64,000 nucleotides of DNA from Octopus vulgaris. Lineage: Eukaryota. The stretch lies in assembly GCA_951406725.2 (NCBI GenBank), contig OX597820.1:7378001-7442000 (forward strand). Direction: 5' to 3'. The notes under the pieces were generated by a model that worked only from the letters and a program-made list of their open reading frames with translations, ran no database searches and was not told the origin of the DNA. Below, piece by piece: positions 11,172-46,385 of this stretch (positions within the stretch are counted from its first letter, which is position 1; every line of letters begins with the position of its first letter). A program made the position numbers and the translations under genes.

Positions 11172-11585
11172 ATTTCTTTACTACCCACAATGGGCTAAAC
11201 ATAGAGGGGACAAACAAGGACAAACAAACGGATTAATTCGATTACATCGACCCCAGTGCGTAACTGGTACTTGATTTATCAGCCCCGAAAGGATGAAAGG
11301 CAAAGTTGAACTCGGCGGAATTTGAACTCAGAATGTAACGGCAGACAAAATACCTATTTCTTTATTACCCACAAGGGGCTAAACACAGAGAGGACAAACA
11401 AGGACAGACAAACGGATTAAGTCGATTACATCGACCCCAGTGCATAACTGGTACTTAATTTATCGACCCCAAAAGGATGAAAGGCAAAGTCGACCTCGGC
11501 CGAATTTGAACTCAGAACGTAACAGCAGACGAAAAAACCGCTAAGCATTTCGCCCGGCGTGCTAACGTTTCTGCTAGTTCGCCGC
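11172..11585 (-). mobile_element. SINE-A dimer (full copy 11355-11585 followed by headless copy 11172-11354) inside the tandem array
   Basis: Two SINE-A bodies and tails in tandem. An imperfect 17-bp direct repeat flanks them (11154-11170 and 11589-11605). Confidence 0.9.
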
Positions 11586-14500
11586 TTTGTTAACATCTAG
11601 TTTCTACTAAAACAGTTCCAATCTTCTGCTTTTGTAACTGCATTGGGAAGTTAGAAAAACATGAATTCTGCTCTTCCTTTTGTGAATGCATTTCTGTAGC
11701 AAATCTAACAAAACAATTGTGTTATGCTATCCTTATTCTGCAAATCCAGAAATACTTTTATTTGGAAACTAAAAAAGCAGTTGTATTCTGCTACATTTGC
11801 GAGTTCATGTATATTTGGAATCTACAAAACCTATTGCATTCTGAGACTGTTCAAATGCAGATTTGGAATCTGCAAAAACAAACTTATATCTTACATATTT
11901 TCTGAATGCATTAACTATTGAAATCTACAAGAACTGTTACACTCGACTACGTTTATGCATGTTTCTACATTTAGAGAATATATAATACAATTGTATTCTG
12001 TTTCTCTTAAGAATGCATTTCCATTTGCCGCCTGCAAACGCAATTCTGTACCACTGTTTGTCTGAATGCATTGTTATTTGATATCTATTACATATATTTC
12101 ACTTCTGTGAATGCATCTAGATTCGGTATCTGCTAAAACAATTGTATTCAGTTCCTATCTCTAATGCATTTACAATTCAAAACTGTGAATGCATTTAATT
12201 TAGAATCTACAAACACAATTGCTTTCTGCTACACTTGCAAATGCATTATATATGGAATATTCTACAACTTTTGTGTAACTATTTGTATTTTAAATCTGCA
12301 CAAGCAATTGTTATGTAATCCTCTGCTTTTGCGAAAACTTGTGGAACCTGCAAAACAAGTCTATTTCGCTTCTTTTGTGAATGCATTTATATTTAGATTC
12401 TGCAAAAACGGTTGCATTCTTTTGCTTCTATAAATACATTTACTTGTGGTATCTACAAAACAATTGTATTCTTCTAAATTTTAAAACGTATTTTTATTTG
12501 GAATTTACCAAAACAGTTATATTCTACGACATCTCTGAAAGCATTCATTTTGAAATTAACACAGATATTTCTATTCTCCGAATATTATGAATGCATTTAC
12601 GCATGGAATATTACTAAAAAAAACAAAACAATTCTACTCTGCTGCTTTTGTGAACATGTATATATCTATAGTCTAAAAGAATGGTATTCTACTCCTTTTG
12701 TGAATGCATTTTAGTTAGAATCTACATAAAACATTGCTACTTCTGTGGATGCAACTATATTTGGAATCTTCCAAAACTGTTATAGGAATGCATTTGCTGT
12801 TGGAATCTGCGAAAACAACACTACTCAGCTAATTTTGTGAATGCGTTTATGTCTGTCATGTGCAAAAAAAAATGTATTCCGTTGCATTTATGAAAGCATC
12901 TACGTTCGGATTAGCCACAAACAACTGCCCGGGTGCACCTTTTGCAAATGCAATTAGTTTGGGAATCATCAAAAACAAAGTCATTCTGCTAATTTTGCGA
13001 ATGCATTAACATTTGGAACTTACAAAACCAATTGTATTCCGTTCTTTTTTGAATTCATTTATATTTAGAATCTACATCCATTGTATTCCGTTGTATATAT
13101 GTGAATGCCTTTACGTTTAGTATCTACAAAAGCAATTGGATTCTCTTAATTTTGTGAATGTATTTCAATTTCGAATGCACGAAAGCAATTCAATTACTCT
13201 CCTTCTGCGACTGCATTCGGAATGTACAAATAAATTTTACTGTACTAGTTTTGTGGACACTTTTAATTTTGGAAAATACCCCAACAAATGTATTCACCTG
13301 CTTTTGAGTTAATATATGTAAAACTGCCAAAGTATTTCCACTCAGCTCCATTTGTGAATGCATTTACAGCTGGAATCCACAGAATCAATTGCACTCTATT
13401 ACTGTCGTGAATGCGCAACTATTTTTGTAAACTGCAAAACATTTGCATTCCTAAGCTTTTGGGACTGCATCTAAAGACTGCAAAAAGCCATGGTATTCTG
13501 CTACTTATGCGACTGCTTGAATTTTACAATTTCTATTGTGTTCTGCTACTACTCTAAAAGCATTTCCATTTGGATAATACAAAATTAATTCTGTCCTTCT
13601 GTTTTTAAGAATGTATTTATATTTGAAAAATACAAAAACAATTTTATTGCGCTTTTTAATGAATGCACTTTACATGGAAACTACATAAACAATTGTATTC
13701 AGCTCCTTTTACGAATGTTTTTTAGATTTGGAATCTACAAACACTTTTGTATTCCAGGAACTATGTAAATACATTTTGATTTGTAATTTGCAGAAACAGG
13801 TATATTCCTCTGATTTTACGATTACATTTGCAATCTACAAAATTAATTGCACTCTGCTAAATGTGTGAATGCAGTCACATTTCGAATCTACTAATACAAC
13901 TGCTTTTTCTGCCTTTGCGAGTACATTTGTAATCTACAAACCAACTGTTTTCTGCTCGTTTTGTGAATGAATATATTTTGGTAATTTCTAATAATAATTT
14001 GTTTTTTCTACAACTTCTATGGCACGTTTGCATTTGTGATTTACAAAAACAATTGTATCATATTTTGGAATTTACAAGAACATTTTATTGAACTACTTTT
14101 ATGAATGCTTTTGCATTTGGAATCTACAAAAAGAATTGTATTTTCTACGTTTGTGCGTGCATTTTCATTTGTATCTACGAAAACAATGGTTTTCCTCTGC
14201 TGTTGCGACTATATTTCGGATCCAAAAAGAAAAACGATTGCATGAATACATTTTCATTTGGCGACTATTAAACCAATCGCATTCTACTTTTGCAACTATT
14301 ATTATATTAGTAATTTACACAAAGAATTAATTTCTACTACACTTGTGGCTATATTCCCTCGCAGAAACGTAGAAAAAGAACTACAACTTGCTGTTTTTTT
14401 TTTTTTTTTGCTACAACTAAAATTTACAAAATACTACTCTTCTCCCATTTTCTGTGACTACAACCGGGAGTCTACAAAACAATTCTTTTCTGCTGAATTT

Positions 14501-15725
14501 GTGATTCCTGTCACAGTTGGAATCTACAAAAAACAATTGTATTGAATTTTTTTTTTTTTACTGCACATTTGAATGTGCAATGACAATTGCGTTGTTCCCC
14601 ATTTCTGAATATATTTTCTTTAGAATATCCAAAATTATTTGTAATCGACTACTTTTGTTGCTATAGTTACATTCTACAAAGACAAATGGACTCTGCTGCG
14701 TTTGCAACTTCAGTTGTAGTTTAAATCTGAAAAAAGATTTGTATTTTTCTGCTTTTCTAAACCGCGCAACAACATTTGGAATCTGCTAAAGCATCCTTAG
14801 TCGGCTGCTTTTCTGATTACGGTTGCATTTTACAAACAACTTTATTCTGTTGCGTTTATAATTGTAATCTACGAAGACATTGTATTCTGTGGCTTTTGCA
14901 GCTATGGCTTCAATCTACAAAACTGTTTGTATCTTTTCTGTATTTGTTGCCAGAGATACATTTGCAATCCACAAAGAACCACTTGCATTCTGCTGCTTTT
15001 ACAACTTGAGTTACTCTTGGAATCGACAAAGTAATTCTATGCTTCTGATTTCGCGAATACAGTTTAAATCGAACTCTAAAAAGGCAATTATATTCAGCCG
15101 TATTTTTGAATATATTTACTGGTTGAATGCACAAAAAAAGAATTCTATTCTGCTGCTTTTGTGACTACAGTTGGACACTAAAAAAACATCTCATTTCGCT
15201 GTATTTGTGACGACTGGTAAAGTTGGATTCCCCCCAAACAATTATATTCAACCGCTGCGACTCCATTCCACATAAGATTTTTATTTATAAAAGCAAGTTT
15301 ATTCGTCTACTTTCGTGGTTTCAGTTTCTTTTGGAACCTACGAACAACGGCGTCTTACTATTCTTTGGCATTCTACGAAACTGTCGTGTTCTGCTGATTT
15401 ACGGCGGATTATATTGCTTTGTGGTTTTCTTAGGTCTATTCAAGACTTTCACAAGGGTTTCTTAGTATGCGATGTTTGGAAAAATATTTATACTCATATA
15501 TGTGATTGGTTCCATATATATTACAGCGCGTGCCAGAGAAATATATGACACTTGATGGTCAGTACAAAATGCTTGCCTCTGAGTGGAATTTCAGCTGTAT
15601 TAATAAAGATCTTGGTTTAATATAACAGTACTGAAATAAAGGAATTTCATCAAGCGATCATCATGTTTGGCTTCTGTACAGAATTTTATATAAATTATAT
15701 ATATATATATATATATATATACATA

Positions 15726-45370: not shown

Positions 45371-45605
45371 TTATAATTATGTATATATGCATCTGCTTCC
45401 GTAAGTGTATTAACTTATATAAGCATGTATACAGATATGTATACATATCTGGAGGGATTGGAGCAACGGACAATAATAAAGTGTCTTGCTTAAGGACACA
45501 ATGCAATGCTGGGAATCGAACTCATGATCATATGAGTCGTGAACCAAATGCCCTAACCATTAAGCCACGCGTCTTCGAATATACACACGCTCACATATAT
45601 ACATA

Positions 45606-46385
45606 CAGGATGCCCGGGGTATTTGAGGACAGTTTTGGTATAGAATAAAATAACTATATTTCAGCATATTTGGATAAACATTTGCGCAATTAGACTTGAT
45701 AATGATTTTTAAAGCAAATTATTCTATGACTCGGCCTTCGGCTTCGATGAGTGCTTCAATGGGGGACCGAAACCGCTGGCATGCTGACACAATATTCACC
45801 TGGACAATGGCGGCCTTCATTGAAGCTATGGTATTATGAGGAACAAGGCGGCGAGCTGGCAGAAACGATAGCACGCCGGGTGAAATGCTTGGCGGTATTT
45901 CGCCAGCCGTTACGTTCTGAGTTCAAATTCCGCCGAGGTCGACTTTGCTTTTCATCCTTTCGGGGTCGATAAATCAAGTAACAGTTACGCACTGGGGTCG
46001 ATATAATCGACTTAATCCGTCTGTCTGTCCTTGTTTGTCTCCTCTGTGTTTTACCCCCCTGTGGGTAATAAAGAAATAGGTATTATGAGGGTGGCGATTA
46101 GTCTCCCTTTCGACAGTGCTCCACGCGTAGTAGCCCATGGGGTTAAAATCTGGTGAGTTTAGGGGCCACATATTGGGTATTACATAATGATAAAGATTGT
46201 CTGACAACCATTCCTGGGTGTCCAGGGCTTTGCGAGAAGGTGCCGAGTCTTGTTGAAATACGTATGACATTCCATTACCTACTTCATAAATCCAGGGCTT
46301 GATAACAGTTTCCAGTACCTCAATGTATTCGGCAGCATTAATTCTAAGACCCCATGGAAAAAAGTGAGGAGGCATCACACGAGCT
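45606..46385 (-). mobile_element. Tc1/mariner superfamily, maT (DD37D) transposase 3' half with putative right TIR, split by SINE-A
   Basis: VFQQDSAP…WPLNSPDFNPMGY has 37 residues between D and the third catalytic position (mutated to G). It continues across the SINE as HNTIASMKAAI…ACQRFRSPIEALIEAEGRVIE*. TA|CAGGATG terminus at 45604-45612. Confidence 0.85.
45847..46078 (+). mobile_element. SINE-A (A1 tail)
   Basis: Full length. 12-bp TSD ggtattatgagg at 45830-45841 and 46079-46090. Confidence 0.93.

What the first reader, a model, noticed from the sequence alone, without database searches (positions are those of the whole stretch)
11172..46090. SINE-A inserts immediately 5' of GGTAYT, a site it carries itself (self-targeting and nesting)
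Seen: SINE-A1 3' ends are followed by GGTA at 11354 (minus, ggtattttg), 23116 (minus, ggtacttat, 13-bp TSD starting at GGTA) and 46079 (ggtattatg, 12-bp TSD starting at GGTA). The gap edge at 43182 also reads gaaata|ggtattcg. Two of these targets lie inside SINE-A (sense ggtatttcg, antisense of aagtacc), giving the dimer at 11172-11585 and the antisense nest at 22982-23438. The third lies in a maT transposase. Two other A1 ends (7265, 11172) lack the motif. Established: many Tx1 endonucleases are sequence-specific. Inference: a site-specific endonuclease makes the SINE a safe harbour for its own copies.
Basis: partly seen in the sequence, partly recalled or inferred. Interest (0 to 1): 0.78.

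Follow-up and report, generated by a model that had tools for sequence, protein, structure and literature searches.

The report
Octopus SINE inserting into its own motif
A small jumping repeat, likely from an octopus, lands just before the letters GGTA far more often than chance and carries that motif itself, so copies pile into each other; the site is likely chosen by a borrowed retrotransposon enzyme, as in crocodile SINEs.

Summary
The target preference is real. In 3 of these an exact 11-13 bp target-site duplication starts at GGTA, so GGTA belongs to the pre-insertion DNA. The local motif is Y|GGTAY(T/G), not strictly GGTAYT. Public data laid on one copy show the junction elsewhere: 634 contigs in one run carry the tail abutting the SINE's internal GGTATTTCG. 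My simulation puts the motif at roughly 30% or more of ends in that run; the estimate is model-dependent, and a second species gave about 10% or less. The SINE tail matches (39/47) the 3' end of an L1/Tx1-type LINE in the window, but both copies of that LINE sit in microsatellites. The GGTA-cutting partner was not found. 'Safe harbour' is not shown: SINE-A copies hold 13 of 54 GGTAYT sites, so 2 nested of 4 is expected (P=0.23). Best model, inferred: a partner endonuclease nick at ARTACC/R, helped by read-through RNA pairing with GGTA. The closest precedent is crocodilian SINEU/Tx1-Mar. Verdict: new variant of a known kind.

The parts
45847..46078 (+). Full SINE-A1 copy (tRNA-like head, central domain, LINE-like tail ending AAAGAAATA) inside a Tc1/mariner-like transposase remnant; AACAA (45842-45846) lies between the left TSD and the head
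45830..45841 (+). Left TSD GGTATTATGAGG
   Evidence: exact match to 46079-46090, 0 of 267 null windows as good
46079..46090 (+). Right TSD starting at GGTA; the transposase-like frame is in register across the empty site
22982..23449 (+). Outer SINE-A1 copy of the nest (positions 1-133, then about 121-210, tail partly deleted, ending TTGAAACA)
22971..22981 (+).
   Evidence: 13 identical letters counting the first two SINE letters, 0 of 249 null
23450..23460 (+). Right TSD of the outer copy, starting GGTATG
23117..23347 (-). Inner SINE-A1 copy inserted antisense at the outer copy's AAGTACC site; 13-bp TSD at 23104-23116 and 23348-23360
   Evidence: 0 of 269 null
11355..11585 (-). 5' unit of the dimer (SINE 1-231); its internal site at 11539 is mutated to GGTTTTTTCG
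11172..11354 (-). 3' unit of the dimer (SINE 47-230), starting at the internal GGTATTT site; 90.7% identical to the 5' unit
11154..11170 (-). Possible degraded 17-bp TSD of the whole dimer (14 of 17, partner 11589-11605); does not start with GGTA
   Evidence: 2 of 256 null windows as good; the region is a repeated array, so this is weak
7036..7265 (+). SINE-A1 copy followed by a TA run, not GGTA; most diverged copy (87%); possible 8-bp ATATATAT duplication
   Evidence: (14 of 279 null)
43182..43195 (+). Gap-edge candidate junction GAAATA|GGTATTCG; the SINE body, if any, lies in the N gap
2754..4319 (-). 5'-truncated L1/Tx1-type LINE (ORF2 C-terminal part with zf-RVT, 3' UTR); tail homologous to the SINE-A1 tail; flanked on both sides by (TATC)n
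15725..15983 (+). Second 3' UTR fragment of that LINE group (69% over 280 bp), in a TA/TATG run

Best explanation
SINE-A1 is a tRNA-headed SINE with a LINE-derived tail whose copies insert just before GGTAY, likely because a partner L1/Tx1-type LINE nicks the opposite strand at about ARTACC/R and primes reverse transcription there, likely helped by the SINE's read-through RNA pairing with the freed GGTA end. Shown: the motif lies in the duplicated target; TSDs are 11-13 bp; the SINE carries two such sites (sense GGTATTTCG at position 47, antisense GGTACTT near 133); the tail is homologous to an L1/Tx1-type 3' UTR. Inferred: (1) an antisense hit gives an ordinary nest with a TSD; (2) a sense hit at position 47 lets the cDNA pair with the homologous target, so the 5' join is seamless and gives [1-231][47-231] dimers with no inner TSD; (3) each TSD regenerates the site, giving tail-GGTATT..-head tandems; (4) self-insertion follows from a short motif that abundant SINE-A copies happen to supply, not from a dedicated safe-harbour system.
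For: GGTA at 4 of 6 ends and exact TSDs starting at GGTA at 3 of them. Empty-site frame in register. The base before the site is T, T, T, C in 4 of 4, never the A that RNA pairing would favour; this weakly points to a nicking enzyme (chance about 1 in 16). Tail versus LINE 3' end 39/47 and 36/45, with a predicted terminal hairpin at the same place in all five tails folded. LINE relatives have endonuclease + RT + zf-RVT domains, about 1150 aa, and the best solved match is LINE-1 ORF2. Outside the window: 8 of 11 printed X1 rows and the single X15 row of table 5c leave the reference at 46084, the end of GGTATT; 634 X1 contigs have the tail directly before position 47; 13 contigs show the 46083->45910 back-joint; 5 contigs show the head-to-45976 opposite-strand joint, as expected for the antisense nest. 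Depth on the TSD bin is 0.040 of the body bin in X1, against 0.002 simulated with random flanks. The dimer's 5' unit is closer to another locus (94.0%) than to its neighbour (90.7%), so it is not a recent local duplication. Precedents: Tx1-clade target preference and tandem SINEU-3 copies around a TSD (PMC4494074, passages and section 15); L1 priming needs as few as 4 matching terminal bases and adds to endonuclease specificity (PMC3649969, abstract).
Against: The GGTA-targeting LINE was not found; both tail-sharing LINE fragments sit in microsatellites. 2 of 6 ends lack the motif. The genome-wide fraction is not pinned: the laying tool behaves as if it needs about 30 aligned letters, which favours GGTA ends; the best fit is about 0.3 in X1 and about 0.1 or less in X15. 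Non-motif ends are visible (354 X1 contigs with consensus ending GAAATAAATA; 12 X23 reads ending GAAATAGGAA). The raw-read runs laid only 10 and 193 reads, about 50 of them from one variant. The hairpin is not more stable than shuffles (z 0.14 to -1.33). Tx1 rather than another L1-group clade was not tested against named references.
Confidence: 0.55

Rival explanations
1. RNA-set targeting: the endonuclease is loose, and the site is chosen mainly by the read-through 3' end of the SINE RNA (likely GGUAUUU, ending at a T run in the master's flank) pairing with the nicked strand. Each master would then pass on its own flank as the target.
For: No T4 run is shared among the four full copies checked, so transcripts would run into the flank; the dimer junction has T4 at +5. 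Exactly four bases are invariant, position 5 varies only T/C (which U-G wobble allows) and the match decays beyond it, as in the L1 priming rules (PMC3649969, abstract). All 8 printed X1 joints from 46084 continue with T, including two tail-GGTATT-T(A)-head rows. The 7036 copy has the same tail but a TA target. RNA-target annealing is proposed for SART1 and R1Bm (PMC7265360, passages).
Against: The upstream base is a pyrimidine in 4 of 4. 11 X23 reads join the tail to the sense AGTACC site, a poor match to GGUAUU, although AAATA microhomology could also explain them. No copy in the window shows GGTATTT followed by an unrelated TSD. Tx1-clade specificity is mainly credited to the endonuclease (PMC4494074, passage).
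Confidence: 0.22
2. Dedicated self-targeting: a Tx1 lineage evolved specificity for the abundant SINE-A sequence as a safe harbour, and SINE-A1 rides on it.
For: 2 of 4 motif insertions are inside SINE-A; dimers recur in two species; P=0.047 if the motif is GGTAY; Tx1-Mar targets an abundant transposon (PMC4494074).
Against: P=0.23 with GGTAYT. 2 of 4 targets are outside SINE-A and share only about 6 bp with the SINE sites. The two internal sites differ in sequence and orientation. SINEU-3 reaches 90% of copies in its target (PMC4494074), which is not seen here.
Confidence: 0.15
3. The dimers are not insertions: they come from unequal recombination between a GGTATT TSD at the SINE end and the internal GGTATT, or from a dimeric master RNA. 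Only the dispersed preference would be real.
For: No TSD around the inner unit; a possible TSD brackets the whole dimer. Single dimer variants reach summed depths of 380-550 in X1, and one deleted tandem variant gives about 50 X23 reads, which implies later amplification. SINE-derived tandem repeats are attributed to unequal recombination (PMC10702118, PMC11481361, passages).
Against: The two units are only 90.7% alike and the 5' unit is closer to another locus, against intra-locus duplication. The antisense nest has a clean TSD and is a true insertion.
Confidence: 0.2

Closest known systems
SINEU-1/2/3 with Tx1-Mar (crocodilians; PMC4494074, abstract, passages and section 15 read)
   Same: A SINE with an inherited target preference attributed to a Tx1 LINE; targets inside a transposon; tandem copies around a regenerated TSD.
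   Different: SINEU has snRNA heads and targets another element (Mariner-N4), up to 90% of copies. SINE-A1 has a tRNA-like head and a LINE-homologous tail, a roughly 6-bp motif, and carries the site itself, giving head-sharing dimers. Its partner is unidentified.
Kibi/Koshi-type microsatellite-targeting Tx1 (described in PMC4494074)
   Same: The window's tail-sharing LINE fragments sit in (TATC)n and TA/TATG runs, and the 7036 SINE copy ends in a TA run.
   Different: They do not explain the GGTA junctions; no phylogeny against named families was made.
L1/Alu snap-velcro priming (PMC3649969, abstract); SART1/R1Bm RNA-target annealing (PMC7265360, passages)
   Same: Endonuclease nick and a few terminal RNA-DNA pairs jointly set the site.
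   Different: Those use poly(A) or long fixed targets. Here the pairing sequence would come from Pol III read-through into the previous TSD (untested).
SINE-derived satellites and tandem SINEs (PMC10702118, PMC11481361, passages)
   Same: Tandem units built from part of a SINE.
   Different: Here the unit boundary coincides with the insertion motif, which offers an insertion route to the first duplication.
Octopus OR1/OR2/OK SINEs; Meta- and CORE-domain superfamilies (PMC4824008, PMC4758252, passages; OK is recalled)
   Same: tRNA-headed octopus SINEs with a conserved centre and exchangeable tails. The window has copies with the same first ~165 nt and other tails (18901, 27495).
   Different: Sequence identity to these named families could not be tested; the element itself may already be in Repbase or Dfam.

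Membership tests
tRNA-derived SINE | Dispersed ~230-bp non-coding repeat with TSDs | tested here: met
   308,400 contigs laid in X1
tRNA-derived SINE | tRNA-related head with A and B boxes | tested here: inconclusive
   B-box-like GAGTTCAAATTCC seen by eye (box consensus recalled); Rfam gathering scan gave 0 matches; the head did not fold as a cloverleaf
tRNA-derived SINE | 3' tail shared with a LINE | tested here: met
   39/47 and 36/45 identity to two LINE 3' ends
Tx1-mobilised target-specific SINE (SINEU type) | Tail-sharing LINE belongs to the L1/Tx1 group (endonuclease, RT, zf-RVT) | tested here: met
Tx1-mobilised target-specific SINE (SINEU type) | LINE falls in the Tx1 clade by RT phylogeny with named families | not testable with these tools
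   no named Tx1 reference among the listed hits
Tx1-mobilised target-specific SINE (SINEU type) | A LINE family shares the SINE's target | tested here: not met
   0 of 2 tail-sharing LINE ends in the window are followed by GGTA; no further relevant loci found. The sample is too small to exclude a sister family.
Tx1-mobilised target-specific SINE (SINEU type) | More than 20% of flanks show the target (criterion in PMC4494074) | tested here: inconclusive
   4 of 6 in the window; about 0.3 (model-dependent) in X1 and about 0.1 or less in X15
Dedicated self-targeting (safe harbour) | Nested insertions exceed the SINE's share of motif sites | tested here: inconclusive
   2 of 4; P=0.23 (GGTAYT) or 0.047 (GGTAY)
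MetaSINE / CORE-SINE superfamily | Central domain matches the published consensus | not testable with these tools
   consensus is in figures; supplement file 1 of PMC4824008 could not be searched and the two searched files had no match
maT / Tc1-mariner transposase (host of the 46079 insertion) | DDE transposase domain | tested here: inconclusive
   Pfam gave no family on 111 aa; the resemblance is from recall

The most novel reading that the evidence does not exclude
The SINE inherits its target through its own RNA. Pol III reads past the tail into the previous target-site duplication, which also supplies the T-run terminator, and that read-through end selects the next site. Target choice would then be a heritable trait of each master lineage (GGTA versus TA repeat) on shared LINE machinery, and the internal GGTATTTCG would seed self-extending SINE arrays.
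Probability: 0.22. Interest if true: 0.75.

Novelty: new variant of a known kind. Interest (0 to 1): 0.5.

Why it matters
SINEs make up 11.6% of one octopus genome (PMC13282606, passages), and my literature searches turned up no insertion preference described for them. A high-copy SINE with a sharp 4-6 bp target and a non-poly(A) tail gives thousands of natural junctions for separating endonuclease specificity from RNA-primer pairing in L1/Tx1 elements, a question usually confounded by poly(A). It also offers an insertion route from dispersed SINEs to tandem arrays, and it warns that dimers and GGTA flanks can distort consensus sequences. Target-preferring SINEs carried by Tx1 LINEs are already known, which caps the surprise.

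Tried and rejected
No whole genome is held for this window, so no direct genome-wide logo could be made. Exact SINE-tail pattern scans found 0 stretches in viral, metagenome and prokaryote collections. Searches for LINE relatives with DNA context gave one weak locus, L001 (32% over 84 aa, not examined further), and none in viral contigs. Protein searches gave relatives without flanks, so no family could be tied to GGTA. Earlier-findings look-ups were empty. Rfam gave 0 matches. I first read the depth overrun (4.8, 3.5 and 6.3 letters for X1, X15, X23) as 'nearly all ends carry GGTATT' and dropped that reading: simulations showed a length filter of about 30 letters inflates the ratio. Random flanks are still excluded (at most 0.145 in any setting, against 0.29-0.53 observed). 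X22 laid only 10 reads and none reached the tail, so it gives no evidence. Rejected: GGTA being only a SINE terminus (it is in the upstream TSD in 3 of 3); recent local duplication for the dimer. The U2 snRNA site of Keno/Utopia (TGTAGTATCTG, quoted in PMC4640811) loosely resembles the motif; this is a lead only. Sequence right of the gap (43182 onward) has no informative match in the window.
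Full report
Setting. The window is rich in microsatellites and SINEs. The closest named relative of its LINE fragment is an Argonauta hians protein at 62%, so I infer an octopod genome. No whole genome is held.

Observation. A BLAST and nhmmer search with the 45848 copy found six complete A1 3' ends, plus copies that share the first ~165 nt and have other tails. 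Four of the six ends are followed by GGTA: 11354, 23116, 23450 and 46079. The 23450 junction is new: it is the outer copy of the nest, has a partly deleted tail, and its target is GGTATG. GGTA occurs at 305 of 127,800 positions; P(>=4 of 6) = 5e-10, about 1e-7 allowing for any four-mer. Three junctions have exact TSDs starting at the first G (13, 11-13 and 12 bp), each better than all 249-269 random windows tried. At 46079 the flanking transposase-like frame is in register when the two flanks are translated separately. The empty sites read CTAT|GGTATT, TGAT|GGTATG, AACT|GGTACT and, for the dimer's site, TAGC|GGT.., giving Y|GGTAY(T/G). The ends at 7265 (TA run) and 11172 lack the motif. The gap edge at 43182 fits but shows only 6 SINE letters.

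Beyond the window. I laid two raw DNA runs (X22, X23) and two contig sets (X1, organism A; X15, organism E) on 45791-46150. X1 may be the window's own source. X22 and X23 laid only 10 and 193 reads. Depth continues into the 12-bp TSD bin at 0.40 (X1), 0.29 (X15) and 0.53 (X23) of the last SINE bin, then falls to near zero. Of the 11 X1 rows printed in table 5c, 8 leave the reference at 46084, the end of GGTATT, as does the one X15 row; 332 rows were not shown. They return to SINE position ~47 (dimers), to 45933, or to the SINE head with only T or TA between. 634 X1 contigs have the tail directly before 45894, the internal GGTATTTCG. Five contigs join a head to 45976 on the opposite strand, as expected for the window's antisense nest. 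Against the reading: 354 X1 contigs and 12 X23 reads that did not align across the reference's tail indel have consensus ends GAAATAAATA and GAAATAGGAA. My simulations give at most 0.145 with random flanks. The observed profile fits a minimum aligned length of about 30, which favours motif ends; under it X1 fits a motif fraction near 0.3 (probably a floor, since other families and microsatellites inflate the body bin) and X15 about 0.1 or less. The enrichment over a 0.1-0.2% background is firm; the fraction is not.

Partner. The last ~47 nt of the SINE match the 3' end of a LINE fragment at 2754-4319 (39/47) and of a second at 15725-15983 (36/45). All five tails folded show a small hairpin at the same place, not stronger than shuffles. 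The fragment carries zf-RVT; fuller relatives have endonuclease + RT + zf-RVT in about 1150 aa and best match LINE-1 ORF2 among solved structures. That places the LINE in the L1/Tx1 group; 'Tx1' itself rests on resemblance and on its microsatellite targets. Both fragments sit in (TATC)n or TA/TATG runs, so they are at best sisters of the GGTA-targeting partner, which I could not find. The 7036 copy may have been moved by such a microsatellite-targeting sister (inference).

Dimer and nesting. The dimer units are 90.7% alike, and the 5' unit is 94.0% like the inner copy at 23117, against a recent local duplication. I infer a sense insertion at position 47 with a homology-guided 5' join, which leaves no inner TSD. 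A weak 14/17 duplication brackets the whole (2 of 256 null). A dimeric master or ectopic recombination stays possible. SINE-A-like copies cover 2,289 bp (3.6%) yet hold 13 of 54 GGTAYT sites. After removing TSD duplicates, 2 nested of 4 has P=0.23 with GGTAYT or 0.047 with GGTAY. Self-insertion is real, but an evolved safe harbour is not shown.

Mechanism. Best model (0.55): a partner endonuclease nicks the bottom strand at about ARTACC/R, and read-through RNA pairs with the freed end. The nick is inferred from the 4-of-4 upstream pyrimidine and from Tx1-clade precedent (PMC4494074). The pairing is inferred from the lack of a shared T4 terminator, the exact end at AAAGAAAT(A) in all 5 intact tails, four invariant bases and a wobble-compatible fifth, in line with L1 priming rules (PMC3649969). 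The RNA-dominant rival (0.22) is the novel case; dedicated self-targeting gets 0.15. The recombination account (0.2) concerns the dimers only and overlaps with the others.

Literature seen. PMC4494074: abstract, passages, section 15. PMC3649969: abstract and outline. Passages only: PMC7265360, PMC10702118, PMC11481361, PMC4640811, PMC4824008 (two supplement files searched, one not searchable), PMC4758252, PMC13282606, PMC3747384. Eight searches showed no listed title, abstract start or read passage describing a GGTA target or self-insertion for an octopus SINE. Subscription papers, Repbase and Dfam were not searchable, so the element may be catalogued there.

Verdict. Observation confirmed and extended; interpretation partly supported; new variant of a known kind; interest 0.5.

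Noticed in passing
loose ends at 46012 and 46049 (run X23): About 50 of 193 reads come from one short SINE-derived tandem variant with the junction CAGAAATA|GCTATTTCGTCTG and a large internal deletion: a possible SINE-derived satellite whose boundary is the insertion site.
   Followed up: no
joints 45845->45910 and 45845->45915: Head-to-head (opposite-strand) joints of a SINE head with SINE position ~47-68 in 31+6 X1 contigs and 21+7 X15 contigs. No antisense GGTA lies there; unexplained (another subfamily, or use of the second-strand nick).
   Followed up: no
loose end at 45976 (run X23): 11 reads join the SINE tail to the sense AGTACC of the second internal site; either the near-palindromic site is used both ways or AAATA microhomology joined them.
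   Followed up: partly
window 18901-19098, 27495-27697, 4883-5060, 29958-30121: Copies share the SINE-A head and centre but switch at about position 165 to other tails, some ending in (TTA)n; no clear TSD in the two tested. Tail exchange within one family.
   Followed up: partly
window 2480-4427 and 15690-16072: Two L1/Tx1-type LINE fragments inserted in (TATC)n and TA/TATG microsatellites: a candidate microsatellite-targeting lineage in octopods.
   Followed up: partly
window 43400-45300 and 54024-54419: Fragments that look like a Penelope-type element (recalled resemblance; Pfam gave no family on 43717-44424), interrupted by another SINE type.
   Followed up: no
window about 9100-15200: Degenerate ~52-53 bp repeat array that hosts the SINE dimer.
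   Followed up: no
window 45842-45846, 11586-11588, 23348-23349: A-rich letters just before the head in several copies; read alignments start at 45845, suggesting the SINE begins AAGGCGGCG or prefers an AA second-strand end.
   Followed up: no
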